Assembly (NCBI GenBank): GCA_019322895.1
Contig: JAHWHZ010000001.1
Coordinates: 74,220-138,219, forward strand
Source: Candidatus Woesearchaeota archaeon
Lineage (GTDB): Archaea; Nanobdellota; Nanobdellia; Woesearchaeales; ARS49
DNA length: 64,000 nt
Direction: 5' to 3'
Under the pieces are notes generated by a model. It made no database searches and was not told where the DNA came from. It worked only from the letters and a program-made list of their open reading frames with translations. The position numbers and the translations under genes are program-made. This document shows positions 6,944 to 40,194 of the stretch, piece by piece (position 1 is the stretch's first letter; the number at the start of each line of letters is the position of its first letter).

Positions 6944-7561
6944 ATGCAATACAATACACTAACAAAACCCGAAAAAACAGCACTATTAATCGGAATGTTT
7001 GCGGGCGATGGATGTCTACCAATCAAACATAATGGAGAAGGTTATAGAAACTACCAGATTGCATTCTATAATACTAATAAAAAATATGTTACTTTATTTC
7101 ACAATTTATTCTCTCAATTATTTCAAATTGAGGGCAAAATTTTTTGCAGAAAAAGAGCTAATAAAAAGCCATTGTGGCGTTTCGAGAAATATAGTAAAAA
7201 GTTGGCAGTAAAATTTAATCAAGAATTTGAAATTCCTTTTGGAAAAAAAGCTTTGTCTGTATTTGTCCCTTCTTTTATCAAAAATGCAGATTTATCTGCC
7301 AGAAAACATTTCTTGCTTGGTTTATTGATTACAGACGGGGGCATTAGAAAAAATGGAACAATTATTTTTCATGCCGCCAGTAAAAAACTTATCGACGATA
7401 TCGGAAAATTAATGTTTGATATTTGGGAAATTAAGAAGCAAACAAAAAAATATAGGCAGGGAAAATCTCGTTCTTATCAGATAAGTTTAAATATAACTGA
7501 AAGCAGAAAGGTACTTACAGACATGCCACCGTCGCATAACCTGGTATTGCGCGGATCTTAA
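6944..7561 (+). CDS. Double-motif LAGLIDADG homing endonuclease
   Basis: Two LAGLIDADG motifs about 110 aa apart (LLIGMFAGDGCL and LLGLLITDGGI); 205 aa like I-DmoI-type enzymes. Flanked by the inverted repeat CCGCGCA (6906-6912) / TGCGCGG (7548-7554). Confidence 0.8.
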   Translation: MQYNTLTKPEKTALLIGMFAGDGCLPIKHNGEGYRNYQIAFYNTNKKYVTLFHNLFSQLFQIEGKIFCRKRANKKPLWRFEKYSKKLAVKFNQEFEIPFGKKALSVFVPSFIKNADLSARKHFLLGLLITDGGIRKNGTIIFHAASKKLIDDIGKLMFDIWEIKKQTKKYRQGKSRSYQISLNITESRKVLTDMPPSHNLVLRGS

Positions 7562-7663
7562 TCCCTCGGGGGTTAGGAGCGTAAGCCTTGAGTGATTCTT
7601 CACAAAGGATTCAGGTTAGCCCGTTCCCTTCGGGGTATCCCGGTTCAAATCCGGGCGGTGGCG
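7525..7663 (+). tRNA. tRNA-like gene, class II (long variable arm), probably intron-containing; anticodon unresolved
   Basis: Canonical T-arm CCCGG-TTCAAAT-CCGGG (7639-7655), 3' acceptor CGGTGGC plus discriminator G (7656-7663), variable-arm hairpin CCC-TTCG-GGG (7626-7635). A perfectly complementary 5' acceptor GCCACCG lies at 7525-7531, followed by a class-II-like D-arm (GCA-taacctggtat-TGC). About 50 extra nt between the D-arm and variable arm imply intron(s). A tyrosine integrase starts 45 nt downstream. Confidence 0.45.
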
Positions 7664-7707
7664 TTTAACTTTTTGGGACAAGAAATAGGCAATATTTATA
7701 TAGTAGT

Positions 7708-8955
7708 TTGTCTTTTATAGACGGTATGAAAAGAAAAATTGACATTCATGAGTATGATAAAAAATTAAAAGTTGCGATTTCTAATTTGGAAAAATCTAAG
7801 ATTAGTAAAATAAATAAAAGTGAAATTAAGAAGTATGCTGATTTTTTGTTTATGGATAATATTGGCAAGGCGAGAATTCTGAAATATGTTTCTACTTTGA
7901 AAATAGTTGCCAAGGCAATTGATAAGGATTTTAAGAAAATAACAGAAGAGGATTTGAAAAGGTTCTTGATTAAGATTCATAATAATCCTAATTTAAGTGT
8001 TTGGACTAAGGTTGATTATAATGTTTCTGTTAAGAAATTCTATAAGTGGCTTGAAGGGGATATCAAAAATAATGTTTGTCCTAAAAAAGTTAGTTGGATC
8101 AAGACAAGTATTAAGAAAAAAGACAAGCCAAAAGTTAAGAAAAGTGAATTGTTAAGAGAGGAAGATATTCAGTTGCTTTTGAAAAACGCGGATAATCCTA
8201 GAGATAAGGCTTTGATTTCTTTAGTTTGGGATACTGGTGCAAGGATTGGTGAGATTGGCGGAATGACTATTAAGCATGTTAGTTTTGAAGATAATGCTAC
8301 TTATGTTGATTTGGTTGGCAAGACAGGAAGCAGGACTTGTTTGGCTATTGAATCTACTCCTTATTTAGTTCGTTGGCTTGAGGCTCATCCTGACAGGGAA
8401 AATTCCAGTAGTCCTTTATGGTTGGATAGGAGTAATAAGTCTATGACTTATGCTGCTTTGGCTAAGGTTATTCGCAGGGCTTTTGAAAAGTCTAAGTTAA
8501 AGAAAAGGTTTAATCCTCATTTGTTTAGGCATTCTCGTGCTACTTGGTGTGCTGAGAATGGTTGGAGCAGTTATGAGATGTGCAAGCATTTTGGCTGGGA
8601 ATTAGACAGTGGTATGCCTGCGGTTTATATTAGCATGGTTGATAAGGATGTTCATAATAAGATGAAAGAGGCTTATGGATTAGATACAGAAAGAAAGCAG
8701 AAGATTGAAGAGAGGAAATTGCAGAAATGTCCTCGTTGTGAGGTTACTAATCCTAACAAAAGTAAATTCTGTTATAAATGTGGCATGGCTTTGGATACTA
8801 AGACTGCTTTGGATGTTGAGAATAAGAGAAAACTTGCTGATGATTTGATGCTTAAATTGTTAAGACAGCCTGAACTTAAAGAGGTTTTGGTTAAAAGATT
8901 AAAAGAACAGCAGTTGGATAAGCAGGTTAAGAAGATTATTGGTGGTAATGAATGA
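7708..8955 (+). CDS. Tyrosine recombinase / integrase
   Basis: Catalytic R (DTGARIGE), K (GKTGSR), HxxR (HLFRHSRATW), H and Y (AVYISM) signature; C-terminal CxxC..CxxC Zn ribbon. N-terminal region similar to the integrase at 49235-50428. Confidence 0.8.
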   Translation: MSFIDGMKRKIDIHEYDKKLKVAISNLEKSKISKINKSEIKKYADFLFMDNIGKARILKYVSTLKIVAKAIDKDFKKITEEDLKRFLIKIHNNPNLSVWTKVDYNVSVKKFYKWLEGDIKNNVCPKKVSWIKTSIKKKDKPKVKKSELLREEDIQLLLKNADNPRDKALISLVWDTGARIGEIGGMTIKHVSFEDNATYVDLVGKTGSRTCLAIESTPYLVRWLEAHPDRENSSSPLWLDRSNKSMTYAALAKVIRRAFEKSKLKKRFNPHLFRHSRATWCAENGWSSYEMCKHFGWELDSGMPAVYISMVDKDVHNKMKEAYGLDTERKQKIEERKLQKCPRCEVTNPNKSKFCYKCGMALDTKTALDVENKRKLADDLMLKLLRQPELKEVLVKRLKEQQLDKQVKKIIGGNE

Positions 8956-11556: not shown

Positions 11557-12504
11557 TTACTTCTCTTCTTCTCTCACAATCATAATAGAAAAAAGCGATC
11601 CTAAGCAAGATTTAATTCTTCTTATGATACTACACAAATGATGTAAAATACAATCATCTTTATCGTTTGCTTCTAATGAAGAATATAGTTCTTTTGTTTT
11701 CTCTTGAATTTCGCTATGTAATTTGGAGCAATCTTCAATTTTTAATGCTTTTTCTGTTTCTTGTTTCAAGAATAAATTTTTGAAATTAGTAAAGGAATCG
11801 TTTGTTTCTTTGAATAGTTTAAGAGTTTTTTTATCAATTTTTTTCTGTTTTAAGTAATATTTACAAATACTATAATACTCATCACCTATATTTTCTAGTT
11901 CTTTAATGATATAAAAAAGAAAAGGAATTTGGTCTATATCTTCATAACCGACTTTAGTTAGTATTCTTTCACAAAAGTTTGCATTTCTATTTATTATGCT
12001 TTCTTTGGTCATCGCCATTTTGATTTCATTGATATTTTTGGTTTTTATACTCTCAAGACTATCTTTTGAAAATTCCGATAAACTAAAAAGCAACTTTTTT
12101 AGAATACTTTTAAATTGTGATTGATCTATCATGGAAATAGATTCTAAAACACAGAAGTTTTTCTTATTTTCCGTAATATCTAATCCGTTTAAATCTGATC
12201 CAACAACTTTATCAATTGCATTATAAATCTCTGCATTATTATATGCGAATTCTATATGGTCATAGCCCGCGCGGTATAATGCTGCAGTATAGTGCATTAT
12301 TGTAGGGCAAGAAATCTTATCAGAAACAGTGATTGTTTTAGATAGAATCTCTTTTCTTCCTCTGCCCCCAACGATTAGATAATGGCCTTCTTCAACTATT
12401 TGTATTTCGTCTCCTTTATGAAGTTTATTTTTGTTAATCCACTTTATTGGAAGTGTTATTGTTAATGAGGAGCTTCCGTGTTGTACAATTTTTCTTGTTG
12501 CCAT
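11557..12504 (-). CDS. AbrB/SpoVT swapped-hairpin domain fused to a PhoU-like domain (archaeal phosphate-uptake-regulator-like protein)
   Basis: N-terminal IVQHGSSSLTITLPIKWINKNKLHKGDEIQIVEEGHYLIV is AbrB/MazE-like; helical PhoU-like remainder. A paralog lies at 31122-32036. Confidence 0.55.
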   Translation of the reverse strand: MATRKIVQHGSSSLTITLPIKWINKNKLHKGDEIQIVEEGHYLIVGGRGRKEILSKTITVSDKISCPTIMHYTAALYRAGYDHIEFAYNNAEIYNAIDKVVGSDLNGLDITENKKNFCVLESISMIDQSQFKSILKKLLFSLSEFSKDSLESIKTKNINEIKMAMTKESIINRNANFCERILTKVGYEDIDQIPFLFYIIKELENIGDEYYSICKYYLKQKKIDKKTLKLFKETNDSFTNFKNLFLKQETEKALKIEDCSKLHSEIQEKTKELYSSLEANDKDDCILHHLCSIIRRIKSCLGSLFSIMIVREEEK

Positions 12505-12509
12505 AAAAA

Positions 12510-12580
12510 TAAGGAGAGGTTGTTTTGGTGAAACAAATGAACAAACTAAACCAGAGTTTAGAGGTCATTCCCTCTCCCTT
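12510..12580. repeat. Hairpin repeat element, diverged copy D (AAGGAGAGG...TGTTTTGG...CCCTCTCCCTT)
   Basis: Same architecture as B and C; overlaps the 5' leader of gene 11557-12504. Confidence 0.4.
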
Positions 12581-12915
12581 AGTACTATAAAACGCACGCA
12601 TATATAAATGTTTCTATCCAATAAACAAATAAATATAAAATACACATTTTCTAAAAGTTATGCATAATAAACTGCAAAAATACATATATTCATTGTACTT
12701 TATATTATTTAACAAGAACTGAAGGGACACAAGCTTCCTTGGTTCGGAGGTGATAAAAAATGAAAAAAGCACAAAAACAAAAAATGAGATGGGGTATGAA
12801 ATCTTCGGTAATAGATGGATACATATTCGATCGATTTGGAGTTAGTTTTAGACAAATGGGGGCAATAGCCTAAAAAGGGTAGCGTACTACATTACGCTAG
12901 GAGGAAATAAAAAAA

Positions 12916-14229
12916 ATGAAACAAAACGCAATTATTGGAGGGGGCAAAATTGAAGAGCCCAGAATAGCTTTGGGAAACACTATTGATGGAACTGGTAGAA
13001 GTTTGGATCTTAATGTTAACAAACCGCATAATATTGCAATTATAGGTCCTTCAGGATGCGGTAAAACAATGTTATTATCTACGATTTCTGAAGGTTTAAT
13101 TTTTAAGAAGAGTAATTGTCTAAAGAATTTTAATACTAGTATGCCTTTGATTTTATTGGATTTACTGGGAAATATGCATGGACTAAAGAAAACGGACAAA
13201 CAATGCGAATTAATTAAAGAACTAGATCAAAAATCTCTTGAAGATTTAGATTCTAATGTAACACTTAATTATATACCCTCATACATAAGTGATGACGAAA
13301 TGAGTCCTGAAGAGATATTAGGATTTAATCGATTATCAGTAGACTTTTCCAAGATAACTGAATCAGAAGTTTGTGAACTTTTAAAGATTTCTGTAGCTAG
13401 AGATACCAATATGGCGGCACTAGTTAAACGGGTAATGAAGCAGCATCCCAAGAATCCTGGAGAATTTTTCGATATGTTAAATATGTTGAAAGAGGATGCC
13501 TTGCTTCCAGATAATCTCGCTAATGCATTAGACAAGGTTCTTTTTAGAGCAGAAGAGTTAGTAAAGTATTCTATTTTTAGATGGAATAACAATAAGGATG
13601 TGATTAGTCAACTTAGAAATAGAAAAACTGCAATAATAAATTGTGAAAAGTCATTAATGGAGGCGAAAGAAGTAACTAATATGTGGATAAGGCTTTACTT
13701 AGGGAGATTAAAAACTGAGAGAAGAAAAGCAAATGAATCAGAAACACAAAAAAGATACTTTGGAACTGAAGTAGATTTTAAGGATAAATTGCCGGCTTTC
13801 TGGCTTGCTATTGATGAAGTTCATAGGCTTAATCATAGTACAAAAGTAGCATATAATGATTTTGTAAGAACTGCAAGGAATTGGAATTGTTCAACTATTG
13901 TTTCTACTCAATGTGTGGATGATATTGATAAAGAAACTAGGAAAAATCTAACAGTAATGTTTTTGGGTAGAATGAGTGAAAAAGAAGCTATGAAAGCTTT
14001 AAAGGATTTTCCAATCCCAATAAATCATAAGCGAGTTTTGAATAGAGTACAAGATTTGTTGCCTGGACAATTCTTGGTTTTAGATAAAATAAGCGGCGAA
14101 TTTTTTTATCTTAATACAAGAGAAAGAATCACTCAACACGTAGGCGCAACTGTTTCAACTGCTGATTTGATTGAGCTTTACAAGGATGCAAATGAAGCAA
14201 AAATGAAAGTGCCTGCTTTGGTCGCATAA
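12916..14229 (+). CDS. HerA/FtsK-superfamily P-loop ATPase (DUF87/AAA_10-like)
   Basis: Walker A AIIGPSGCGKT and Walker B FWLAIDEVHRL; RBS AGGAGG upstream; 437 aa. Confidence 0.55.
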   Translation: MKQNAIIGGGKIEEPRIALGNTIDGTGRSLDLNVNKPHNIAIIGPSGCGKTMLLSTISEGLIFKKSNCLKNFNTSMPLILLDLLGNMHGLKKTDKQCELIKELDQKSLEDLDSNVTLNYIPSYISDDEMSPEEILGFNRLSVDFSKITESEVCELLKISVARDTNMAALVKRVMKQHPKNPGEFFDMLNMLKEDALLPDNLANALDKVLFRAEELVKYSIFRWNNNKDVISQLRNRKTAIINCEKSLMEAKEVTNMWIRLYLGRLKTERRKANESETQKRYFGTEVDFKDKLPAFWLAIDEVHRLNHSTKVAYNDFVRTARNWNCSTIVSTQCVDDIDKETRKNLTVMFLGRMSEKEAMKALKDFPIPINHKRVLNRVQDLLPGQFLVLDKISGEFFYLNTRERITQHVGATVSTADLIELYKDANEAKMKVPALVA

Positions 14230-14352
14230 GGTGATGAAAATATTTTTTCCACCTTCTTTTTTATCAACAAACACACACAGTTTTATAAAAGATGTTAGCT
14301 TTTTAAGGAACTGTAAAGCCACATTTAAAAAAAACTGAATGAGGATTCAAAA

Positions 14353-15801
14353 ATGAAACTCCTAACCAAATCCAAATATCTAATTGGCTTGCAGTGCCCT
14401 AAATATCTTTGGATTGTTTTTAATGATTCTAAGCAGATTCCTAAGGCAGGGGTTCCTGATGAGTTTAAGTTTAAGGAAGGTGAGAAAGTAGGGGAGTTGG
14501 CTAAGAAGTTGTTTCCTGATGGGATTGATTTGCCTGCTGATGATTTTGTTAAGAATCTTGAGGAGTCTGAAAAGGCTTTGAAAGAGAGAAAGCCTTTGTT
14601 TGAGGCTGGTTTTAAGTTTGGGAATATTTTTTCTAGGGCAGATGTTATTGTTCCTGTTGGTGATGAGTGGGATATTGTTGAGGTTAAATCTGCTACTAAG
14701 GTTAAGGATATTAATTATCATGATGTTGCTTTTCAGAAGTATGTATATGAAAGTAAGGGTCTTAAGATTAGGAAGTGTTTTTTATTGCATTTGAATAGTA
14801 AATATATTAGAAAGGGAGAGTTAGATTTAAAGGGTTTATTTGTTAAGGAAGATATTACTTCTAAGGTTAGTTTGCATTTTTTAGGTATTAAGGGGAGGAT
14901 TGATTCTATGTTTAAAATTATTTCTTCTGAGAAAATGCCTGAAATGAAGGTTGGGGCGCATTGTAGTGATCCTTACAAATGTCCTGTTTGTCATTGTTGG
15001 GAAGAGTTGCCTGAGAATCATGTTTTTTGTTTGTATCGTGGCGGAAAGTTAAGTTGTAAATTATTTGAAGAAGGAATTGAAGCAATTGGAGATATTCCCG
15101 AAGATGTTAAATTAAATGATAAACAAGGAATACAAAGAGATTGTGCTCTTTCTGGAAAACCCCATATACACAAAGAAAGTATTAAACATTTCTTAAACAC
15201 ATTAAAATATCCGTTATATTATCTTGATTTTGAAACTTTTTCAACAGCGATTCCTATGTTTGACGGATTAAAGACTTATTCTCAAGTTCCTTTTCAGTTC
15301 AGTTTGCATGTTGTTGAGAAAGAAGGAAGTAAACCAAAACATTATGAGTTTCTTTATAATGGAAATGAAGATCCACGAGAGGATTTTATTTTGGCTTTGA
15401 AAAAGGTTTTAGGAGATAAGGGTTCTGTTGTTGTTTATAATCAAGTTTTTGAGATTAATAGATTAAAAGATTTAGGAGAACACTTTCCTAAATATAAGAA
15501 ATGGGTAGATTCTGTTTTATCTAGAATTGTTGATTTATTAGTTCCGTTCAGGAATTTTTCATATTATAATCCAAAACAAGAAGGTTCTGCCTCAATCAAG
15601 AAAGTTCTACCTGCGCTCTGCAGTAAAAGCTATAAAGGAATGGGTATTACAGATGGAGGAACCGCATCTGTAAAGTTCTTTAATATGGCTTATGGAGAAT
15701 GTGAAAATAAGGATAAAATCAGGCAGGACTTGTTAAAATATTGCGAACTAGATACTTTGGCAGAGGTTTGGATTGTTGAGGAATTGGGAAAGCTCATTTA
15801 A
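14353..15801 (+). CDS. Two-domain nuclease: N-terminal Cas4/RecB-like PD-(D/E)xK nuclease with Fe-S cysteines fused to a C-terminal DEDD/RNase-H-like exonuclease-type domain (DUF83 + DUF2779-like)
   Basis: N-terminal Cys (LQCPKYLW), a D..EVK block (DVIVPVGDEWDIVEVKSATK), QxxxY (FQKYVY) and a C-terminal Cys cluster CSDPYKCPVCHC match the Cas4 motifs. The second half has YYLDFETFS, an acidic DxE-type motif. Confidence 0.5.
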   Translation: MKLLTKSKYLIGLQCPKYLWIVFNDSKQIPKAGVPDEFKFKEGEKVGELAKKLFPDGIDLPADDFVKNLEESEKALKERKPLFEAGFKFGNIFSRADVIVPVGDEWDIVEVKSATKVKDINYHDVAFQKYVYESKGLKIRKCFLLHLNSKYIRKGELDLKGLFVKEDITSKVSLHFLGIKGRIDSMFKIISSEKMPEMKVGAHCSDPYKCPVCHCWEELPENHVFCLYRGGKLSCKLFEEGIEAIGDIPEDVKLNDKQGIQRDCALSGKPHIHKESIKHFLNTLKYPLYYLDFETFSTAIPMFDGLKTYSQVPFQFSLHVVEKEGSKPKHYEFLYNGNEDPREDFILALKKVLGDKGSVVVYNQVFEINRLKDLGEHFPKYKKWVDSVLSRIVDLLVPFRNFSYYNPKQEGSASIKKVLPALCSKSYKGMGITDGGTASVKFFNMAYGECENKDKIRQDLLKYCELDTLAEVWIVEELGKLI

Positions 15802-15844
15802 AAAAAGAAGTATTTATAAAAGAAATCAAATTAAATATGTTAAT

Positions 15845-16618
15845 ATGATTAGCGATAAATTAAAAGAAGAAATAAAAGAAGAGTTAATTAGGAAAATTAA
15901 GAATAAAATTGCGAATTATGATTTTTCTAAGAAATCAGGAAATCCATTTATAGATATTGTTTTTGGCAAATATTCTAATATCAAATCATTTATTCATGGA
16001 ACTGCAACTATGCTGGGCAGTTATTATGAAATACTTGCTAGAAAAATTGCACAAGAAAATTCCAATTTTATTGAAGCAAAAAAAATTGTGCTTATTGGCA
16101 AAATATCAAATTCGGAAAGTGCAGTTATTAAACATTTAGTTAAGGATTTAGAAGAAAAAAATATTGCTGCAGATCATGATGCCGAAATAAAATCAGTTTA
16201 TTCCGCAGGAGCTACAAATATTAGAGATACGCGAATAACTATCGACTTGTTTTTAAAAGATAAAAAAGGAAAAGAATATTTTATCGAAATGAAAGGCCCG
16301 GATCCTAATAAGAAAGAAGTTCGCGCAGCAAAAGAAGACTTATTAAATGTAATTGCTATGAAAAAAAGAGAAATTTCTATTAAATCTTTCGATAAAAAGG
16401 TTCGAGTTATTTTTGGAGTATATTATAATAATGAAGACGGGGACTATAATAATTGGAAAGTTTCTCCGATGTTCGAAAGAGGACAAGATTTATTAGTTCA
16501 AGAGGAATTTTGGGATCTTTTAGGTGGTAAAGGGACATATAAAGAATTATTGAATATTCTTGAGCAAGTAAAAGAAAAGGTATTCCCAATTATTGAAAAA
16601 ACAATAAATAAATTTTAG
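15845..16618 (+). CDS. Putative type II restriction endonuclease (PD-(D/E)xK); the longest ORF starts at 15773 but overlaps the upstream gene
   Basis: Convergent with and overlapping (4 nt) the DNA methyltransferase; candidate ID..EMK catalytic block (ITIDLF...EYFIEMKGP). Confidence 0.35.
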   Translation: MISDKLKEEIKEELIRKIKNKIANYDFSKKSGNPFIDIVFGKYSNIKSFIHGTATMLGSYYEILARKIAQENSNFIEAKKIVLIGKISNSESAVIKHLVKDLEEKNIAADHDAEIKSVYSAGATNIRDTRITIDLFLKDKKGKEYFIEMKGPDPNKKEVRAAKEDLLNVIAMKKREISIKSFDKKVRVIFGVYYNNEDGDYNNWKVSPMFERGQDLLVQEEFWDLLGGKGTYKELLNILEQVKEKVFPIIEKTINKF

Positions 16619-18222
16619 TTTTTTTTCTGCATATGAAATATTATTTCTGCGTAGGGTTGTCTGTCGCGTTCTGTTCGGTTTAGTACGGGTCTTTTGAATT
16701 TATTTACTATTTTTAATCCGCTTTTTTCGGCGATAATCGGATATAGATTAAATTTATCGTTTGCTACTATAAAAAAGTGTCCATCGTCTTTGACAAATTT
16801 GCTGATATTTGTTAAAACTTGACTGATTCCTTCGATATATTCTTTTCTGGCTTCTGCGCCGCGGCCTTTGTATAATGGTCCTATTTCTTGTTTGTCTCTT
16901 CGGTTTATTTTGAATAGTTCGTATGCATATGCATGTTGTTCGTGATAGTCTATTTGACCTACATACGGGGGAGACGTAAATATTCCTGCGATTTTGTTGT
17001 TTTTTAGGATTTTATATAGTGCTGGATTTTGATTTTTGACTTGTTCTAGTATGTTTATTGTTCTTGAATCGTCAGAAAGTACTGTTTGTTGTGTTTTTTT
17101 CTTTAATTTAGAAAAGTCATTTAGTCTTGTTAGTGTATCGTAGGTGTTTCTTCGCAAATGTTTAAGTATGCTGTTAATGGGGGTGCATATTTTTTTGTGT
17201 TTTCGGCAATAGTAAGGCCCTCTTTGTGGTTCTTTAAGTGTTGCTAGATCCGAATGTGTTGTTGCTCTGCATGATCTAGCAGTTCTACTCAATACTATTT
17301 TCATTATATTTCTTATTTGTTTATCATTAATCGTATTTATCAGCTTTAGGTAAAAATAAAGTTCTTGTTGAATTCTTTTTGAAAACCAGGTATTTAAGAA
17401 AGAGGACATTTTTTCTTGGCTGGCAAGATTAATTTTGTTTTTGGTGCCATTGTTTGTCAGGAATTTTTCATTTTTCTTCAGGAATTCTAAAAATCTTTCT
17501 TGCGCATATTTTTCTTCAGATATTTTTCCTTTAGATACTTTGTGTTTAAATTCTGGATTAGGAAAATGTTTCTGATTAAATTCGTATAATTTTTCTTTTA
17601 ATTGTAAATCATAATCGTCATCAAATGTTCTTTCACTGAATTGTGCAGTTCTTAGCAATGCTTCTTGCAATTTATTACTTAATCTTTTTATGTCATAATT
17701 ATCTAATTTAACTTTTGATAATAGACAGTTGAATTCAGAAATATCTATACCTATTGAATGCATTCCTAATTCAGATGCCTGAATTAATGTTGTCCCGCTC
17801 CCCATAAACGGATCTAGTATTATATCGCCTTTCTTGAAAAATATTTGTTTTTTAAATGTATTAATGTGATTATCTAAGAAGTATTCTACTAATTGAGGAA
17901 TAAATTTTCCTTTGTAAGGATGTAATCTATGAACATGTTTTGTTGTATCTGCTTCGCGCAAATGATCAAAGGATAACGCCCAGTTTAAATCATTTCCAAG
18001 ATATTTTTTCCAGGCATTTTGTTTTTTAATTACGATATCATCGTAATATCTTTTTAATTCATCTTTATTAACAATTATTTTTCTTTGATTATCTACATAT
18101 TTACGAATTTTAGCATATTGAACCAAGTAGGTTATATTTGAAGGGGTGACAGGTTTATTTAAATAATTGGTTGCCCAAGTAGAAGCCTCTTTTATTGAGA
18201 TACAATTATTGATTTTTATCAC
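16615..18222 (-). CDS. DNA methyltransferase (N6-adenine/N4-cytosine amino-MTase)
   Basis: SAM motif I DPFMGSGTT followed by ..LG..IGID..EF; catalytic motif IV TSPPY (IFTSPPYVGQIDY); 535 aa. Confidence 0.8.
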   Translation of the reverse strand: MIKINNCISIKEASTWATNYLNKPVTPSNITYLVQYAKIRKYVDNQRKIIVNKDELKRYYDDIVIKKQNAWKKYLGNDLNWALSFDHLREADTTKHVHRLHPYKGKFIPQLVEYFLDNHINTFKKQIFFKKGDIILDPFMGSGTTLIQASELGMHSIGIDISEFNCLLSKVKLDNYDIKRLSNKLQEALLRTAQFSERTFDDDYDLQLKEKLYEFNQKHFPNPEFKHKVSKGKISEEKYAQERFLEFLKKNEKFLTNNGTKNKINLASQEKMSSFLNTWFSKRIQQELYFYLKLINTINDKQIRNIMKIVLSRTARSCRATTHSDLATLKEPQRGPYYCRKHKKICTPINSILKHLRRNTYDTLTRLNDFSKLKKKTQQTVLSDDSRTINILEQVKNQNPALYKILKNNKIAGIFTSPPYVGQIDYHEQHAYAYELFKINRRDKQEIGPLYKGRGAEARKEYIEGISQVLTNISKFVKDDGHFFIVANDKFNLYPIIAEKSGLKIVNKFKRPVLNRTERDRQPYAEIIFHMQKKN

Positions 18223-19007: not shown

Positions 19008-19565
19008 ATGTATGAAACCATAAAAGATAAAATAAAAGAAGTTATTGAAATTACCCAAAAATGTCCTGAAAACTTACAGGAAAAATGTTTTGAATTACTG
19101 ATGTTACCTTTGCTTCAGGAAAAAGTGACTCCGTCAACTGTACAAGAATCAGAAGAAAAAGAGTCTGTTGTAACAGAAGTTGATTTTAAAATACCCTTAG
19201 ATGTACGAGCATTCTTAGAACAGTATGGTGTTTCTGAAGAAAAATTGCAAAAATTATTCCTAATGCAAGGAGAAGAAGTCAAAGAAAAGTTCAATATTAC
19301 TACTTCCAAAAAGGCAAGAGCTCAAATCCAGCTTGCATTATTAAGTGCTTTGCAAAATGCTTTGAAAGGCGAAAAATTTCAATTTTCAATTGCAACTGTT
19401 AAGCAACAATGCGAAGATCATAAAGCGTACGACTTGCCCAATTTCAGAGGAATTTTCAAAAAGAACCAAGGACTGTTCAAGAATCTTGATGATGATGAAA
19501 ATGTCGAATTATCACCCTCTGGAAAAGAAAAACTAGCTGAGACAATTCTTGAAGTAGCAAAATGA
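19008..19565 (+). CDS. Hypothetical protein, first gene of a three-gene module
   Basis: RBS GGAGGG upstream; 4-nt overlap (ATGA) with the next gene. Confidence 0.3.
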   Translation: MYETIKDKIKEVIEITQKCPENLQEKCFELLMLPLLQEKVTPSTVQESEEKESVVTEVDFKIPLDVRAFLEQYGVSEEKLQKLFLMQGEEVKEKFNITTSKKARAQIQLALLSALQNALKGEKFQFSIATVKQQCEDHKAYDLPNFRGIFKKNQGLFKNLDDDENVELSPSGKEKLAETILEVAK

Positions 19566-20395
19566 AGGACAACATTCTTAGAGGATTAGAAGGAATAGAA
19601 TCTTCTCTCAGAAGTCTTAAAGGGCTTGTAAATTTAAACAAGTCTGAATTTGTGTCCAAAGTTTCTATCAAGGGACTTTCAAAAGAAATCGCTGTAAAGT
19701 GGTTTGAAAGTATTGAAAAACCGCTAAGCAGTTCTTTTTCTTTGCAAGAAGACACAATGAAAAAATATCAGGACAATTTCGATAAACTTTTAAAGCTCTC
19801 AATACGCAAAAATGCAAGAAAAAGCACATACTTAAAGCAAATAGACTTATTATTAAGCAATTTCAAGAATGACCTGATTCAGCCAGTATTGAAATATACG
19901 CCAGTGACATCAAAACTCAATAACTGGTCAGGCATATTTAAAGATGTAACAGAAGGAGAAAAAGAATATTTAAATGAAGCAATAAAATGTGCTGATTTAA
20001 ATTTATTTAGAGCATCCATTGTCTTGGGATGGTGTGCAGTTATTGATAGAATTCATAGAGTTATCGAAATGAGAGGATTTAAGGAATTTAGCGAAAAAAG
20101 TGAGGAAATGCGCAAGAAGAAGGATGGTCGTTATAAAAGGTGTAATAAAGCATTTTCAATAAATTCTTTAAACGAATTACGTGTCCAAGTATTTGATAAA
20201 GACCTTTTGTGGATCCTAGAATACATGAACTTAATCGATCCTAACCAACATGACCGGCTTTCATTATGCTTTACTATGAGAAATAACTGCGCGCACCCTG
20301 GAGATGCAGGAATATCGCCAGAAAATCTCCTTTCTTTTTATTCAGACGTAGACAGCATAATATTTAAAAATCCTAAGTTTTTACTCAGTAAATAA
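19562..20395 (+). CDS. HEPN-domain protein (Rx4HxxD type), putative RNase toxin / Abi-like
   Basis: C-terminal MRNNCAHPGD fits the HEPN R-x4-H motif; predicted all-helical. Confidence 0.4.
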   Translation: MKDNILRGLEGIESSLRSLKGLVNLNKSEFVSKVSIKGLSKEIAVKWFESIEKPLSSSFSLQEDTMKKYQDNFDKLLKLSIRKNARKSTYLKQIDLLLSNFKNDLIQPVLKYTPVTSKLNNWSGIFKDVTEGEKEYLNEAIKCADLNLFRASIVLGWCAVIDRIHRVIEMRGFKEFSEKSEEMRKKKDGRYKRCNKAFSINSLNELRVQVFDKDLLWILEYMNLIDPNQHDRLSLCFTMRNNCAHPGDAGISPENLLSFYSDVDSIIFKNPKFLLSK

Positions 20396-20434
20396 TACCC
20401 TACATTGCTAGTTTAAAAGAAAGAGAAAAACTAA

Positions 20435-21022
20435 GTGAGTTTATTTAGAATGAACGAAGAACAAATAACACAAGAAGAATACATACTAGAAGTATTAAAA
20501 GATGACTTAAATACGGGAAGATACCCTATTTTACAAAAATCGCCATCACTTATTACAAATGCAAATCTTCTGTCTGAAGATGAAAATCAAAAGAGATTAA
20601 AGTTAATACAAAATAACGGCGCCTTTGGCAGAATCTTTGAGATTCGTAATTTTGTTGCTTTTTATAAATCACAGATTAAACAGGAAGAGTTTCTAGAACT
20701 ATTTTGGTGTCCTAAGGGTAATGAAACAGACCAAGATGGAATAGATTTAATGAGCGACAATACTAGAAATATTGCTAAGTTAATTGCTTTTCTCAAAAAA
20801 GAATATTTAGGAACTGATCCAAAAATAATACAACAAATCAAGAGTTTTTTTAATGAAGAAATAAGGAAAGATAAAGAAATCCGACTCTTCTTATTTGAAA
20901 CATCCCGTAGTAAATTAATAATAGATGGGAACCATCGGGCGGGAGCAATAGTAAAGTCAATATCACAGGAAAATATAGAAAATGTATTTCCCATTACTGT
21001 GTATGTCGCAAAAATATCCTAA
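20435..21022 (+). CDS. ParB/Srx-like nuclease-domain protein
   Basis: IIDGNHRAGAI matches the ParB N-terminal DGxHR motif; 195 aa. Confidence 0.4.
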   Translation: MSLFRMNEEQITQEEYILEVLKDDLNTGRYPILQKSPSLITNANLLSEDENQKRLKLIQNNGAFGRIFEIRNFVAFYKSQIKQEEFLELFWCPKGNETDQDGIDLMSDNTRNIAKLIAFLKKEYLGTDPKIIQQIKSFFNEEIRKDKEIRLFLFETSRSKLIIDGNHRAGAIVKSISQENIENVFPITVYVAKIS

Positions 21023-21120
21023 ATCCCGTCCCTTTCGGTTTAACGTGGGGCGGTGGCGTCTATATTTCTACCTGAAAACTGCTTAAAAAAAATCCCGAAT
21101 CTTTATAAACAATCTCAGAT

Positions 21121-22944
21121 TTGTGTATATCGATGAAGACACGTAATGCTGGAGATATTGTTGGCAGGGGAGGACGCTATAAATTAGTGGAAGAGATCGG
21201 AGCAGGTGCTGTTCTAGAGGTCTGGTCTGCAAGACAATGTCTGGATATGGGCAACAGGACTGTTGCACTTAAATTTCTAAAAGATTCAAGCAATATAGCA
21301 CATCTTCAGAGCGAGATAGATTTGCTGCAGAAAGTCGGCCAGCACCCGCACATTGTTAATTTGTATTATAGAGAGCTTGAAAATGACCCTTTTATTGAAG
21401 TTGATTTATGCCACGCCACTCTTAATGAAATATTAGGGCCTGATGGACTGCCTTTTGACGATCCTGTTAAAAAACAAGAGGTTGCAGTAAAAAAGATAAG
21501 GAACCTGGCAAATGCTGTTCAGTTTGTGCACAACAAGACTTCTGACAGCATCATTGACTTGGACCCGACAAATATAATGCTTCAGCAGTATGATTCTGAC
21601 AAGCGCGAAACTGCAGTCCAGCTTTTGGAAGGCACAGTAAAGATCTGTGATTTAAACGCGAAAATCAATCAAGTTTCCGTAAGAGATTCTCTTGTAGCTT
21701 CATTATCCACATCTATCAGTACAGGCGAGAAAGGCAGCACGCATGTCTTTGCAAAGCCTTATTTTATTGCTCCTGAATTATTGAATTCAGATGCAGAGCC
21801 TACTTTTGCTGCAGATGTCTATTCTCTTGGAAAGATTCTTTCAGTGATGCTGACTGGAAGAAAAGAGCTCAATCCAAGATACATGCCCTCTAAGATGGGC
21901 ATTGCGCCTGCTTATGATGAGGTTCTTGCAACTGCTGTTGAGCCAAAAATTGAGGAAAGGTTCCAGGATATTGGCCAGTTTTTAGAGGCTGTTGAAGCAG
22001 CTGAAAAACGGCCTGTCAGGGTGACTGTCAGTAGCTGGGAATGGGTTAAAAGCGGTTTTAGCTATAAAAAAGCACAGGCCAAAAAAGAAAAAGAAGCAGA
22101 AGCAAAGTGGCGCGAGGACGTGCAGGGCATTGTTGATACAGCCAGAAGAAAGATTGAGGATGCAGAACGCGATAAAAGATGGGAGGCAGATAGAGACAGA
22201 AGTATAAAAAGAGAACAAGAAAAGAAGAAAAAACAACAAGAAGCAGAAGAAGCAAGAAGAAAAGAAGTGGAGGCTCTTGAAATACTACTCAAAGAGCGGC
22301 CAGATGAATCCCGCGCTGCGTGGCTCCGTGATGATTCAGATATCGTAATTTATCAGGTTAATAAAGTTCATGATTCCACGTATACACCTACAATATTGAA
22401 TGTGCCGAGCATTGAAAGGCGTGAGTTTCACATCCAGTGGATGGCATGGGTCAATGGAGGAAAACATCTTGCATATTGTGCAAACTTTAGACAAAAAAAT
22501 AATCCCTATTCTGAATATTCTGCAATTGGTTTGATAAACACAGACACTTTTGAAATAATCGAGGAATCATTGGAATACTTATTAAAAACACACAATATTC
22601 ATGCAGATGCAGAAGAACCAATAATTTATGCTGCAAATACAGAAGGAAAATTGATTAAATTTGACCTGTTTAATCCAGAAGAAGAAGGGCGGGCAAAATT
22701 CGTCCCTATACGCGGCTTAAGGGTTTGCGAACAAACAAACAGCCGCTGCGGCCGTTTTACATTGCAGAAAAATATAAAGATAGAATCCCATGCGTATAAT
22801 GAACCCCGTAGCCAATACGCTGCAATAGTAAGCAAAGAAAAACCAGATATTGGTTTTGTGATTGGCAAGCCTTCTAAAATAGCGGTCTGGTATGACCCTG
22901 AGAAAAAAACAGAAGAATCTACAGAGCCAGAATCAGCTGTTTAA
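21121..22944 (+). CDS. Eukaryotic-type Ser/Thr protein kinase with a K/E-rich linker and a large C-terminal domain of unknown function
   Basis: Gly-loop IGAGAVLEV, VALKFLK, catalytic-loop-like IIDLDPTNIML and ADVYSLGKIL. Confidence 0.7.
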   Translation: MCISMKTRNAGDIVGRGGRYKLVEEIGAGAVLEVWSARQCLDMGNRTVALKFLKDSSNIAHLQSEIDLLQKVGQHPHIVNLYYRELENDPFIEVDLCHATLNEILGPDGLPFDDPVKKQEVAVKKIRNLANAVQFVHNKTSDSIIDLDPTNIMLQQYDSDKRETAVQLLEGTVKICDLNAKINQVSVRDSLVASLSTSISTGEKGSTHVFAKPYFIAPELLNSDAEPTFAADVYSLGKILSVMLTGRKELNPRYMPSKMGIAPAYDEVLATAVEPKIEERFQDIGQFLEAVEAAEKRPVRVTVSSWEWVKSGFSYKKAQAKKEKEAEAKWREDVQGIVDTARRKIEDAERDKRWEADRDRSIKREQEKKKKQQEAEEARRKEVEALEILLKERPDESRAAWLRDDSDIVIYQVNKVHDSTYTPTILNVPSIERREFHIQWMAWVNGGKHLAYCANFRQKNNPYSEYSAIGLINTDTFEIIEESLEYLLKTHNIHADAEEPIIYAANTEGKLIKFDLFNPEEEGRAKFVPIRGLRVCEQTNSRCGRFTLQKNIKIESHAYNEPRSQYAAIVSKEKPDIGFVIGKPSKIAVWYDPEKKTEESTEPESAV

Positions 22945-37986: not shown

Positions 37987-39084
37987 GCAATGATAAAGCA
38001 GATATTTATTTTGCTTGCTTTATTTTTGCTGGTTGGGTGCAATGCAGAATTAAAGCAGATAACAGAAGGCCCTGATGAAGGCTTTGTTGAATTAGGCAGG
38101 GAGTATTTCTACGCAATGTGGCCTGCGGATATTGACGGCAAACTGGCGTATGTTGCTTCCAGGGACTATAAGCATTTTGTGATTTTGGACGGGGTGCAGG
38201 GCAAAGAATATGATTATGTGCCAGGATACGAGCTGATTGCTGTTGACGGCAAATTAGCATATGCTGCGGGGAATTATAAGGGAGACAGGGGCCAGTTCAT
38301 CGTGTTTGACGGTCATGAAGAAGGGCCGTATGAAACAGTCCGCCATCTGACTGGCATTGACGGCAGACTGGCTTTTTTGACTTACTTGAAGGCTGAGCTG
38401 GAAGAAAAAGATAAATGGTTTGTTGTTTATGACGGCCACGCCTCTCCAAAGTATGATTATATTGAATGGATTAAAGAAATAGCCGGCAAGCCTGCTTATG
38501 CAGTAAGAAATAACGGCAAATCTTACGTGGTCTTTGACGGGAAAGAGCTTGCTTTTTATTATGATGATGTCTATGGCTTTACAGATGTTGGCGGCAAAAT
38601 GGCGTTTATCGCTGAGCAGGACAAAAAATTCTTTGTTGTCGTTGATGATGCAGAAGGAAAAAGATATGATGAAATCAAAAGCGACAATATTTATGACATT
38701 CAGGGCAGGCCGGCTTATGCTGCAAGGAAAGAGAATCAATGGTTTGTCGTTCATGGCGCAGAAGAATACGGCCCGTATGAAGAAGTGCACAGAATACAGG
38801 ATGCAGGAGATAAACTTGCCTTTTCTGCTGTTCAAAATGGCGAATCAATCTGCTTACTTGATGGAAAAGAGCTGCGGCCAGAACCGCAGGCATACGGTGA
38901 AATAATTGATGTGAACGGCAGATTAGCATATGCACGGTATGATGATGTCGGCGCGCATATCATCTATGACGGCAGAGAGCTGGGCAGGCAATACGACCGC
39001 ATACAAAACCTCCGGTCTATAGGAGATAAATTAGCATACCAGGCCACAAAAAACAATAAAACATTCATTGTGCTGGAAGAATGA
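37987..39084 (+). CDS. Lipoprotein built of ~10 tandem ~30-aa WG/DG..AY repeats (likely beta-propeller-like)
   Basis: Signal peptide plus lipobox LLVGCNA; repeated DGK/R-LAY...F.V.DG units. Confidence 0.45.
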   Translation, partial: AMIKQIFILLALFLLVGCNAELKQITEGPDEGFVELGREYFYAMWPADIDGKLAYVASRDYKHFVILDGVQGKEYDYVPGYELIAVDGKLAYAAGNYKGDRGQFIVFDGHEEGPYETVRHLTGIDGRLAFLTYLKAELEEKDKWFVVYDGHASPKYDYIEWIKEIAGKPAYAVRNNGKSYVVFDGKELAFYYDDVYGFTDVGGKMAFIAEQDKKFFVVVDDAEGKRYDEIKSDNIYDIQGRPAYAARKENQWFVVHGAEEYGPYEEVHRIQDAGDKLAFSAVQNGESICLLDGKELRPEPQAYGEIIDVNGRLAYARYDDVGAHIIYDGRELGRQYDRIQNLRSIGDKLAYQATKNNKTFIVLEE

Positions 39085-39090
39085 ATGCGT

Positions 39091-39345
39091 CTATTTTTCT
39101 TTTCTAAGTTTCTGATAAACCGCTCTTGCCCCGTAATACGTCATCGCACCACCCAGCGCAGTCGCCAAAATTGGCATAACAATGCAGTATGAAACTGGCG
39201 TCATGATGCATGACAGCCCCGCATCTTTCGCACCCTTTGCAACAGAAAGTAGAGAAAGTTCTCTATCTTCTGATAAGGTCTCTTCCAGGTCTTTTTTCCA
39301 CCCTTCTTTTGTTAAGTAGTCTCTTAGTCTCTGCATTTTCTTCAC
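39091..39345 (-). CDS. Small membrane protein
   Basis: One or two transmembrane helices. Confidence 0.25.
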   Translation of the reverse strand: MKKMQRLRDYLTKEGWKKDLEETLSEDRELSLLSVAKGAKDAGLSCIMTPVSYCIVMPILATALGGAMTYYGARAVYQKLRKEK

Positions 39346-39431
39346 CTCTAGTAAATATCAAGATATTCAGCACTTATAAATCTTTGTTGTTGTGATTAAC
39401 CACAACATTTAAAAACAATCGCGTATTTCTA

Positions 39432-40181
39432 GTGCAGATGGAAGCAAAAGAACTCATAGAGCTGGGATTAACCAAAAACCAGGCAGCAGTCTATATTGCC
39501 CTGGTCAAGAAACCAGAGCAAACTGCAGGGCAATTAGCCAAAAAACTGGCAATAGACAGGTCATTTGTATATGGAATTCTAGGAAGCTTGATTGATAAAG
39601 GCCTGGCAGGACACATAACTAAGGAGAACAAAAAAATATTCCATGCTTTAGATCCTGAAAATCTAGTTAAAGAGATAGAAGAAAAAAGAGCAAAAGCACT
39701 AAAGACAATTGAAAAATTAAAGCAATTAAAAAAATTAACCAAAGAAGAAATAATTGTTAAAGTATATGAGGGAAAAGCAGGACTTAAATCATACATAAGA
39801 GATTTCTTAGAAAGCGATATTTTTCATACACTAGGCGGAGGAGGGCAATTAAGCATTCTTGAAGCACTAAAATATGAATACCCCCATTATTTGAAAGAAT
39901 TATCAAAGAAAAAAATGAAAGGGCAGATACTAACATCTTCTAAAAATATACCCAAACTGAAAAAATTATTCAAAAAAACGCAGGTAGAATTAAGAACACT
40001 TGAAAATATCGAAAGCCAGGCCAATTTCACGATATTCAAGAACAAATTAGCAATCTATTCTGCAGAAGAAAAGCCATTTGTCATAATAATAGAAGATAAA
40101 ACAATCACAAATGCCTTGAAAAATTATTTTGATGTTCTATGGCAGATTGCTAAAAACGTCCCAGCTATTTCTCAATCTTAA
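39432..40181 (+). CDS. TrmB-family transcriptional regulator
   Basis: N-terminal LGLTKNQAAVYIALVKKPEQTAGQLAKKLAIDRSFVYGILGSLIDKGL. Confidence 0.65.
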   Translation: MQMEAKELIELGLTKNQAAVYIALVKKPEQTAGQLAKKLAIDRSFVYGILGSLIDKGLAGHITKENKKIFHALDPENLVKEIEEKRAKALKTIEKLKQLKKLTKEEIIVKVYEGKAGLKSYIRDFLESDIFHTLGGGGQLSILEALKYEYPHYLKELSKKKMKGQILTSSKNIPKLKKLFKKTQVELRTLENIESQANFTIFKNKLAIYSAEEKPFVIIIEDKTITNALKNYFDVLWQIAKNVPAISQS

Positions 40182-40194
40182 AAGCAACGCTCTA

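What the first reader, a model, noticed from the sequence alone, without database searches (positions are those of the whole stretch)
12916..15801. HerA/FtsK-like ATPase paired with a Cas4-like nuclease fused to a DEDD-type domain: candidate two-gene defence system inside an integrated element
Two co-oriented genes with RBSs sit inside a tRNA-integrated island, next to an R-M system and a HEPN/ParB module. Gene 1 has clean Walker A/B motifs of the HerA/FtsK clade. Gene 2 carries every Cas4 hallmark in its first ~210 aa: N-terminal Cys, a D..EVK block, QxxxY and a CxxC..C Fe-S cluster. A second domain with an acidic motif in the sequence YYLDFETFS follows. HerA-type ATPases partner with nucleases in established anti-phage systems. 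A Cas4-fold nuclease fused to a DUF2779-like domain and partnered with a small HerA-like ATPase is not, to my knowledge, a characterised system.
Basis: partly seen in the sequence, partly recalled or inferred. Interest (0 to 1): 0.75.

Follow-up and report, generated by a model that had tools for sequence, protein, structure and literature searches.

The report
Rare HerA-like ATPase with Cas4-DEDD nuclease
Inside a 13-kb integrated element of a Woesearchaeota genome, a very rare HerA-type motor ATPase and its divergently encoded regulator sit directly upstream of a common Cas4-like/DEDD double nuclease; this is probably a new variant of the known "motor plus nuclease" DNA-degrading defence modules, but no function has been shown.

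Summary

- The Cas4+DUF2779 fusion is already a described architecture, and the family is very large (more than 7,500 hits). Its closest relatives (70-77% identity) lack this ATPase.
- The ATPase is nearly an orphan, with four related loci among 1.84 billion representatives.
- Wherever the ATPase's flanks are visible, a Cas4-family nuclease lies downstream (3 of 3 loci, three different nuclease lineages).
- A 61-67% identical AbrB-PhoU regulator lies divergently upstream (3 of 3 loci), with a conserved intergenic region.
- DUF2779 genes elsewhere often neighbour R-M genes, other ring ATPases and WYL regulators.

The best reading is a regulator-ATPase-nuclease cassette, a new variant of HerA-nuclease systems. 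Confidence is about 0.5, and defence function is untested.

The parts
7524..7664 (+). Intron-containing tRNA gene; its 3' end is the left attachment-site copy of the island
   Evidence: ARAGORN finds it only when introns are allowed. Default ARAGORN and Rfam miss it. Its 3' part (7641-7672) is repeated imperfectly at 21036-21067.
7708..8955 (+). Tyrosine integrase with a C-terminal zinc ribbon
   Evidence: Pfam Phage_integrase 1.6e-22; DZR/Zn_Ribbon hits.
11557..12504 (-). AbrB/SpoVT-PhoU-type DNA-binding protein, divergent from gene 1; probable regulator of the cassette
   Evidence: Pfam MazE_antitoxin (AbrB fold) 5.8e-5 and PhoU 2.1e-5. Homologues 61-67% identical lie divergently upstream of the ATPase in L003 and L020. 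The same subfamily flanks other defence-like cassettes.
12505..12915 (.). Divergent intergenic region with conserved spaced AAATACAY-like boxes (exact copies at 12638-12645 and 12678-12685) and a 37-codon upstream ORF (12760-12873) that occupies the ancestral start site
   Evidence: Alignment of four loci shows conserved boxes and a conserved SD/ATG. The motif is not enriched across the window as a whole. Sequence read.
12916..14229 (+). HerA-clade (FtsK-HerA superfamily) P-loop ATPase, 437 aa, without a HAS barrel
14230..14352 (.). Spacer between the two genes: short inverted repeat GGTG...CACC plus a T-run (14230-14262), a TATA-like TTTTATAAAA (14281-14290), and SD GAGGA (14341-14345)
   Evidence: Sequence read. 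A TATA-like element is also present upstream of ATPase-less homologues. The evidence for independent transcription of gene 2 is weak.
14353..15801 (+). Cas4-like [Fe-S] PD-(D/E)XK nuclease (about residues 1-215) fused to a DEDDy-type 3'-5' exonuclease domain (DUF2779, about residues 285-482)
15773..16618 (+). Type II restriction endonuclease (TdeIII family); the real start is probably the ATG at 15845
   Evidence: Pfam RE_TdeIII 6e-40, with the match starting at residue 29.
16615..18222 (-). Cognate N6/N4 DNA methyltransferase
   Evidence: Pfam N6_N4_Mtase 4.8e-18. PADLOC MTase_II 1.2e-214.
21024..21067 (.). Degenerate copy of the tRNA 3' end; right border of the island
   Evidence: Direct-repeat family D6, 75% identity. 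Sequences read. GC rises to about 0.40 beyond it.

Best explanation
The region carries a three-gene cassette on a tRNA-integrated element. It consists of a divergently transcribed AbrB-PhoU DNA-binding regulator, a HAS-less HerA-clade ring ATPase, and a double nuclease (a Cas4-like 5'-3' Fe-S nuclease fused to a DEDDy 3'-5' exonuclease).

The proposed mechanism is inferred, not shown. The ATPase forms a hexameric dsDNA translocase that loads at free DNA ends and feeds the DNA to the nuclease. The nuclease's two active sites then digest both strands. This would destroy linear or restricted foreign DNA, by analogy with HerA-NurA and HerA-DUF4297. The neighbouring TdeIII R-M system is a plausible source of such ends. 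The regulator would keep the cassette repressed through the conserved AAATACAY-like boxes.

The nuclease belongs to a large family that usually works without this ATPase. The ATPase-regulator unit is therefore best seen as a rare accessory that has been combined with different Cas4-family nucleases.
For: Shown:
- HerA-clade fold and intact Walker A/B motifs.
- Both nuclease active sites intact and invariant across the family.
- All three ATPase loci with a visible downstream flank carry a co-oriented Cas4-family nuclease. These belong to three different lineages: the window's DUF2779 protein, L001/L002's DUF2779 protein (only 51% identical although the ATPases are 72% identical), and L003's solo Cas4 (PADLOC Cas4 4.7e-11).
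- All three loci with a visible upstream flank carry the AbrB-PhoU gene at 67% identity. Four loci share the intergenic architecture.
- The island is rich in defence genes (an R-M system).
- DUF2779 homologues elsewhere sit beside R-M or restriction genes of types I, II, III and IV.
- They also sit beside other ATPases: AAA+, SF1 helicase, DnaB_C-like and FtsK.
- They sit beside WYL regulators as well.
- HerA-nuclease complexes are established defence and repair machines (PMC11291478, PMC12977600).
Against: - There are only three informative loci for the ATPase, and they are related by descent.
- L003's ATPase carries an in-frame TAA stop.
- The N-terminal HAS barrel is absent. From my own knowledge of HerA-NurA and related structures, not tested here, this barrel mediates docking of the nuclease or effector.
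- A T-rich stretch and a TATA-like box between the genes allow independent transcription.
- The nuclease's nearest relatives (70-77% identity) lack the ATPase.
- Many DUF2779 genes lie in housekeeping contexts, next to MetK or RuBisCO.
- A mycoplasma DUF2779 member is quasi-essential in a phage-free minimal cell (PMC13621843). This points to a general DNA-maintenance role.
- There is no physical-interaction, expression or phenotype evidence.
Confidence: 0.5

Rival explanations
1. The adjacency has no functional meaning. The DUF2779 nuclease is a stand-alone, widely distributed DNA repair or processing enzyme with its own promoter. In DPANN archaea it may substitute for missing end-resection machinery. 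The ATPase and its regulator are unrelated island cargo.
For: - More than 7,500 homologues exist, and nearly all sampled ones lack this ATPase.
- Housekeeping neighbours are common: MetK in L004-L006, RuBisCO, TruD.
- In L015-L017 the upstream gene is on the opposite strand, so the nuclease gene heads its own transcription unit. A TATA-like element and a T-run precede gene 2 in the window.
- The mycoplasma member is quasi-essential (PMC13621843).
- The nuclease tree does not track the ATPase.
Against: - Three of three ATPase loci have a co-oriented Cas4-family nuclease downstream, even though the nuclease lineage differs each time. Chance or simple inherited synteny is unlikely to produce this.
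- DUF2779 genes in bacteria also often abut ATPases of other classes.
Confidence: 0.25
2. The cassette serves the mobile element itself. A HerA/FtsK/VirB4-type DNA pump and an end-processing nuclease would act in transfer, replication, recombination or packaging of the element, not in host defence.
For: - The cassette lies inside an integrase-bearing island.
- A PHROG annotated 'terminase large subunit' matches the C-terminal part of gene 1 (2.3e-10).
- DUF2779 homologues occur next to a T4SS-like cluster (L016) and next to an FtsK/SpoIIIE ATPase on an IMG/VR contig (L034).
- They are found on 31 bacterial plasmids.
Against: - The island has no relaxase, T4SS, replication or capsid genes.
- HerA is the best structural match.
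- The NCBIfam TraC score is 17.8 bits against a cut-off of 567.
- Gene 1 has no relatives in plasmid, phage or IMG/VR collections.
- Gene 2 has none in isolated phage genomes.
Confidence: 0.15
3. The region is part of a MADS-type (methylation-associated) multi-gene defence system. The ATPase would be MAD8, the nearby kinase MAD6, and the methyltransferase would complete the set.
For: PADLOC mad8 matches gene 1 at 1.8e-19. PADLOC mad6 matches the kinase at 21121-22944 at 5e-20. A methyltransferase lies nearby.
Against: - The mad8 profile matches every small DUF87 ATPase tested at about 1e-20, so the hit is generic.
- The kinase scores 51 bits against the NCBIfam MAD6 cut-off of 460, and it hits the PADLOC PD-T4-6 kinase profiles equally well.
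- The kinase lies outside the island repeat.
- The other MAD components were not detected.
Confidence: 0.03

Closest known systems
HerA-NurA DNA end-resection complex of archaea (e.g. PDB 4d2i, 7f6d, 9x1l)
   Different: There is no HAS-barrel N-terminal domain; only about 43 residues precede the P-loop. The partner is a Cas4-like/DEDD fusion, not NurA. There are no Mre11 or Rad50 neighbours. The cassette lies on a mobile island with a dedicated regulator. The ATPase is extremely rare rather than universal in archaea.
HerA-DUF4297 and HerA-SIR2 (Nezha) two-gene anti-phage systems (PDB 9c1m, 8j4u; PMC11291478)
   Different: PADLOC HerA profiles do not match significantly (13.5 bits, E=0.005). 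The effector comes from a different family and carries a second exonuclease domain. The HAS domain is missing. The nuclease partner is interchangeable.
DUF2779 / PF11074 family of Cas4-like-DEDD fusion proteins (Majorek 2014, family F.17; MMSYN1_0389 in JCVI-syn3.0)
   Same: Gene 2 is a clear member (146 bits against a cut-off of 23.3). It has the same two-domain architecture and the same conserved D/E/K and DEDDy residues.
   Different: The window protein keeps all four Fe-S cysteines, whereas MMSYN1_0389 keeps only two. It is linked here to a HerA-like ATPase and an AbrB-PhoU regulator. No family member has been characterised experimentally.
CRISPR-associated Cas4 (e.g. SSO0001 4ic1; Cas4-Cas1 7mi4)
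   Same: The N-terminal domain shares the RecB-like fold, the DxnExK and QxxxY motifs, and four cysteines for an Fe-S cluster.
   Different: Pfam Cas_Cas4 scores below its cut-off (14.2 against 22.7). The window has no CRISPR array. No cas gene was seen among the island proteins scanned; the rest of the window was not scanned for cas genes. The cysteine spacing is Cx5Cx4C. The domain is fused to an exonuclease.
COG2251 / TM0106-type RecB-like nucleases with tandem AAA domains
   Same: [quoted passage not shown] This supports a link between an ATPase and this kind of nuclease.
   Different: It is a different Pfam family (PF13482). In the window the ATPase is of the HerA type and is a separate gene.

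Membership tests
HerA clade of the FtsK-HerA superfamily | P-loop core with Walker A and B motifs and the HerA-type RecA-like fold | tested here: met
HerA clade of the FtsK-HerA superfamily | N-terminal HAS-barrel domain | tested here: not met
   Walker A begins at residue 44. The model shows only three short strands before the core. The distant small DUF87 relatives are built the same way.
HerA clade of the FtsK-HerA superfamily | Hexameric ring that translocates dsDNA | not testable with these tools
   Only a monomer model could be made. Conserved R321 could serve as an arginine finger, but this is inference.
HerA-NurA system | Adjacent nurA gene (with mre11 and rad50 in archaea) | tested here: not met
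   The neighbours are AbrB-PhoU, a DUF2779 nuclease and an R-M system. No NurA, Mre11 or Rad50 hit was found in the island.
Conjugative VirB4/TraC ATPase | Match to VirB4/TraC family models and T4SS gene neighbours | tested here: not met
DUF2779 (PF11074) | Pfam model above the gathering score; RNase H-like DEDD exonuclease fold with acidic catalytic residues | tested here: met
Cas4 (sensu stricto, PF01930 / CRISPR-associated) | RecB-like fold with DxnExK and QxxxY motifs and four Fe-S cysteines | tested here: met
Cas4 (sensu stricto, PF01930 / CRISPR-associated) | Family model above its cut-off, and association with a CRISPR-cas locus | tested here: not met
   Pfam Cas_Cas4 scores 14.2 bits against 22.7. 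The best PADLOC Cas4 hit is 5.1e-5. The window has no CRISPR array, and no cas gene appeared among the island proteins scanned; the rest of the window was not scanned. The protein is Cas4-like, not Cas4.
MADS (methylation-associated defence system) | Specific MAD proteins (MAD1-8) scoring above family cut-offs and lying together | tested here: not met
   The mad8 hit is generic to all small DUF87 ATPases. The kinase scores 51 bits against the MAD6 cut-off of 460. No other mad components were found.
HerA-DUF4297 / Nezha defence systems | Defence-type HerA profile match plus a DUF4297 or SIR2 partner | tested here: not met
   PADLOC HerA gives E=0.0053 and 13.5 bits. The partner is a DUF2779 protein.
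tRNA-integrated genetic element | Integrase next to a tRNA gene, with a flanking direct repeat of the tRNA 3' end and atypical composition | tested here: inconclusive
   The integrase and the GC drop are clear. The tRNA is called only when introns are allowed and is not found by Rfam. The repeat is only 75% identical.

The most novel reading that the evidence does not exclude
DUF2779 Cas4-DEDD nucleases, together with an interchangeable ring ATPase and a dedicated regulator, form a widespread but unrecognised class of DNA-shredding modules. The ATPase is HerA-like here and AAA+, SF1, DnaB-like or FtsK-like elsewhere. The regulator is AbrB-PhoU in DPANN archaea and WYL in bacteria. These modules would act downstream of restriction systems: R-M or type IV enzymes make the first cut, and the motor-nuclease processively destroys both strands. 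In organisms that lack RecBCD or AddAB, they would fill the role those enzymes play after restriction.
Probability: 0.2. Interest if true: 0.75.

Novelty: new variant of a known kind. Interest (0 to 1): 0.5.

Why it matters
DUF2779 is a large, conserved protein family with no experimental function. One member is quasi-essential in the minimal cell JCVI-syn3.0. Finding it repeatedly next to motor ATPases, restriction systems and defence-type regulators gives a concrete hypothesis that can be tested: ATP-driven degradation of both strands of DNA that has free ends.

If the hypothesis is correct, it would add an archaeal (DPANN) member to the HerA-nuclease group of immune machines. It would also help explain how organisms without RecBCD dispose of restricted DNA. 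If it is wrong, the region is simply a mobile island carrying a common nuclease, an orphan ATPase and an ordinary type II R-M system.

Tried and rejected
1. MADS membership. The mad8 and mad6 hits proved generic.
2. CRISPR-linked Cas4. The window has no CRISPR array, no cas gene appeared among the island proteins scanned, and the Pfam Cas4 score is below its cut-off.
4. Sequence search of PDB for either protein. It returned only P-loop noise for gene 1 and nothing for gene 2.
5. More ATPase loci. The word-index search, the full HMMER search of 1.84 billion representatives and the metagenome scan gave only L001/L002, L003, L019 (identical to the window) and the L020 fragment.
6. The 83-aa ORF between the two genes in L001. 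It has no counterpart in the window and no family hit.
7. The 256-aa gene after L003's Cas4. It is not related to the DEDD domain (hhalign probability 0.4%).
8. Homology between L003's Cas4 and the N-terminal domain of gene 2. Only the N-terminal Cys motif aligns.
9. HEPN and ParB assignments for 19562-20395 and 20435-21022. There is no profile support.
10. Distant small DUF87 ATPases (P0125, P0126, P0133). Their neighbours are large proteins with faint BrxC/BrxD-like hits, not recognisable nucleases, so they say nothing about the pairing.
11. A complex prediction of the pair could not be run. Only single-chain jobs are offered, and both were used.
Full report
**Source and setting.** Gene 2 is 100% identical to NCBI MBW2972858, a "DUF2779 domain-containing protein" of a Candidatus Woesearchaeota archaeon on a 705-kb contig. 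Gene 1 is MBW2972857 ("DUF87 domain-containing protein"), and the upstream gene is a hypothetical protein. The window is therefore DPANN archaeal DNA.

GC content falls from 0.39-0.40 to about 0.31 between roughly 7 and 21 kb. A tyrosine integrase (7708-8955; Phage_integrase 1.6e-22) follows a tRNA-like gene at 7524-7664. ARAGORN calls this tRNA only when introns are allowed. Default ARAGORN and Rfam miss it. Its 3' end is repeated imperfectly at 21036-21067 (75% identity). A 13.4-kb integrated element is thus well supported, although the tRNA call and the repeat are not clean.

**Gene 1 (12916-14229, 437 aa).**
- A strong SD precedes the start codon.
- Walker A is GPSGCGKT and Walker B is LAIDE. 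R321, Q332, R402 and H408 are shared with distant small DUF87 ATPases.
- Pfam gives DUF87/HerA central domain at 3.5e-8 and AAA_10 at the C-terminus.
- An AF2 model built on 25 sequences has pLDDT 86.6.
- The protein belongs to the HerA clade but lacks the HAS barrel. Only about 43 residues with three short strands precede the P-loop.
- The PADLOC mad8 hit (1.8e-19) is not specific. Every small DUF87 ATPase tested gives about 1e-20.

**Gene 2 (14353-15801, 482 aa).**
- Pfam DUF2779 scores 8.8e-43. RNase_H_2 also matches. Cas_Cas4 falls below its cut-off, and PADLOC Cas4 scores 5.1e-5.
- The residues C15, D97, E110, K112, Q128, C210, C215, D292, E294, E367, Y463 and D467 are invariant in 31 homologues; Y132 is conserved in at least 90% of them. 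The Fe-S tetrad is C15/C204/C210/C215. The exonuclease is of the DEDDy type, with E in ExoII.
Majorek et al. 2014 list DUF2779 with a DUF83 (PD-(D/E)XK) domain. A 2026 mSphere paper analyses MMSYN1_0389 as a Cas4-like nuclease fused to a DEDD nuclease. No member of the family has been characterised experimentally.

**Is the pair linked?** The two families differ sharply in abundance. Gene 2 gave 7,567 significant hits among 8,000 candidates, mostly from DPANN archaea, at 56-77% identity in the top 120.

Gene 1 is almost an orphan. The word-index search found two relatives. The full HMMER scan of 1.84 billion representatives found only those two plus two N-terminal fragments, before dropping to E=6e-12. 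The metagenome scan returned only an identical copy. IMG/VR, plasmid and phage collections returned nothing.

The contexts of the ATPase relatives are as follows:
- **L001/L002** (ATPase 72% identical): ATPase, an 83-aa ORF, a DUF2779 nuclease, then an HsdM gene.
- **L003** (44% identical, with one in-frame TAA): AbrB-PhoU on the opposite strand (67% identical), ATPase, a solo Cas4 of 221 aa (PDDEXK_1 4.6e-12, PADLOC Cas4 4.7e-11), then an unknown 256-aa gene.
- **L020** (a 701-bp fragment): the AbrB-PhoU N-terminus lies divergent from the ATPase N-terminus.

Every visible downstream flank (3 of 3) therefore has a co-oriented Cas4-family nuclease. Every visible upstream flank (3 of 3) has the AbrB-PhoU gene. 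The intergenic region is alignable in four loci, with spaced AAATACAY-like boxes and a conserved SD/ATG.

The reverse does not hold. The DUF2779 loci L004-L018, L026 and L031-L037 contain no relative of gene 1. In an NJ tree the window's nuclease groups with the ATPase-less L015, L016 and L017 (70-77% identity). L001's nuclease is basal at 51%. L003's Cas4 is not detectably homologous in sequence. The ATPase-regulator unit has thus been combined with three different Cas4-family nucleases. Recurrence of the partner class while the partner lineage changes argues for functional coupling rather than inherited synteny. With only three loci, the argument is suggestive and not conclusive.

**Wider context of the nuclease family.** DUF2779 genes often sit directly beside restriction or modification genes of every type:

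| Locus | Neighbouring restriction or modification genes |
|---|---|
| window | TdeIII endonuclease plus methyltransferase |
| L001 | HsdM |
| L010 | D12 methyltransferase plus DUF6996/DUF6997 |
| L016 | type III methyltransferase |
| L017 | type I hsdMSR |
| L033 | GmrSD and a ParB-methyltransferase |
| plasmid H3 | HsdM |

They also sit beside ATPases of several classes:

| Locus | Neighbouring ATPase |
|---|---|
| plasmid H6 | Clp-like AAA_2 |
| plasmids H7 and H18 | double AAA |
| plasmid H8 | SF1 helicase, after a Qat system |
| plasmid H1 | DnaB_C-like |
| L036 | AAA plus an S8 peptidase |
| L034 | FtsK/SpoIIIE |

WYL-type regulators adjoin the nuclease in L031, H1, H7 and H18.

The AbrB-PhoU subfamily (51-84% identity) also flanks other cassettes. 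In L026/L027 it is divergent from a MORC-like GHKL ATPase, a ResIII helicase and an 855-aa HsdM-like methylase, and it abuts a DUF2779 gene on its other side. In L024/L025 it is divergent from a GHKL ATPase.

Other DUF2779 genes lie among housekeeping genes, such as MetK in L004-L006 and RuBisCO in L007. The mycoplasma member is quasi-essential. A purely defensive role for the whole family is therefore not established.

**Mechanism proposed (inferred).** The ATPase would form a hexameric dsDNA pump that loads on free DNA ends and feeds the DNA to the nuclease. The Cas4-like domain would act on the 5' strand and the DEDDy domain on the 3' strand, by analogy with HerA-NurA and HerA-DUF4297. The AbrB-PhoU protein would control expression through the conserved boxes. 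The adjacent R-M system could supply the ends.

Several points weaken this model:
- The HAS barrel is missing.
- Gene 2 may be transcribed independently. A GGTG...CACC repeat plus T-run and a TATA-like box lie in the 123-bp spacer.
- The nuclease phylogeny does not follow the ATPase.
- There are no interaction data.

**Rivals.** Three alternatives were considered:
- Unrelated neighbours, with the nuclease acting as a general repair enzyme (confidence 0.25).
- A DNA-processing or transfer function for the mobile element itself (0.15).
- A MADS-type system (0.03; rejected on scores).

**Verdict.** The unit is a three-gene regulator-ATPase-nuclease cassette. The nuclease architecture is already known, and the family is abundant on its own. 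The new element is a very rare HAS-less HerA-like ATPase, with its regulator, repeatedly joined to Cas4-family nucleases. The finding is a new variant of a known kind (HerA-type motor plus nuclease) and is of moderate interest. The more general lead is the recurrent association of DUF2779 nucleases with restriction systems, ring ATPases and defence-type regulators.

Noticed in passing
window 14353-18222; L001 3443-3658; L010 1410-3010; L016 7481-9436; L017 8953-13440; L033 952-6423; L046 7458-9020: DUF2779 (Cas4-DEDD) genes are repeatedly followed or preceded, often within tens of bases, by restriction or modification genes of different types: type II TdeIII, type I HsdM, a D12 methyltransferase, a type III methyltransferase, GmrSD and a ParB-methyltransferase. 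This link is more general than the one with the HerA-like ATPase.
   Followed up: partly
window 11557-12504; L026 1400-6791; L027 3-6758; L024 1-1510: A tight subfamily of AbrB-PhoU proteins (51-84% identical) lies divergent from different defence-like cassettes. These are the HerA-like ATPase plus Cas4 nuclease, or a MORC-type GHKL ATPase plus a ResIII helicase plus an 855-aa HsdM-like methylase. In L026 a DUF2779 gene abuts its 3' end. It may be an archaeal counterpart of the WYL/BrxR-type regulators of defence systems.
   Followed up: partly
window 12760-12873: A 37-codon upstream ORF with a strong SD (GGAGGTGA) occupies the position of the ancestral ATPase start codon, which is conserved in L003 and L001. 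It is in the same frame as gene 1 but is separated from it by a stop codon and about 40 nt. Gene 1 then restarts with its own SD.
   Followed up: partly
window 7524-7664: A 141-nt tRNA-like gene with a predicted intron is missed by default ARAGORN and by Rfam. Its anticodon assignment (Phe, AAA) looks unreliable. ORF 6944-7561 overlaps its 5' end.
   Followed up: partly
window 39000-51500: A second low-GC stretch (0.32-0.36) carries an integrase gene (47951-48832; Phage_integrase 3e-6), an integrase-like match at 49379-49927 on the minus strand, a TrmB-like paralogue (39432-40181), and SprT-like, DUF3102 and HTH proteins. It is probably another integrated element.
   Followed up: partly
L003 2862-2864: The ATPase homologue in L003 has a single in-frame TAA in an otherwise intact 456-codon frame. 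This is either a recent pseudogene or an assembly error.
   Followed up: yes
window 21121-22944: A Ser/Thr protein kinase (607 aa) lies just outside the island's right repeat. It hits the PADLOC mad6 and PD-T4-6 profiles at about 1e-19 to 1e-20, but it scores far below the NCBIfam MAD6 cut-off (51 bits against 460).
   Followed up: partly
L043 2529-6539; L045 2857-7471; L047 1-8279; L051 1504-5485; L042 3241-7334: On bacterial plasmids (Helicobacter, Rhodoferax, Aliarcobacter, Sphingobium), DUF2779 genes lie directly next to AAA+ ATPases, an SF1 helicase or a DnaB_C-like ATPase, and WYL-domain regulators. In one case the gene follows a QatABCD system immediately.
   Followed up: partly
L021 1777-8465; L038 892-6269; L040 295-6530: The nearest distant relatives of gene 1 are small HAS-less DUF87 ATPases of 411-468 aa. 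They are encoded near proteins of 366-1,409 aa, most of them very large, with faint BrxC/BrxD-like hits. This suggests another uncharacterised ATPase-rich system.
   Followed up: no
window 19562-21022: The proposed HEPN protein (RNNCAH motif) and ParB-like protein (DGNHR motif) have no Pfam or PADLOC profile support. The first matches only PHROG 27609, a family of unknown function (4.8e-10).
   Followed up: partly
L034 1262-9258: An IMG/VR contig encodes an operon-like run: a 1,581-aa STAND-like NTPase, a DUF2779 protein, a 141-aa ORF and an FtsK/SpoIIIE ATPase (PF01580, 4.3e-41). It looks more like a conjugative or defence element than a virus.
   Followed up: partly
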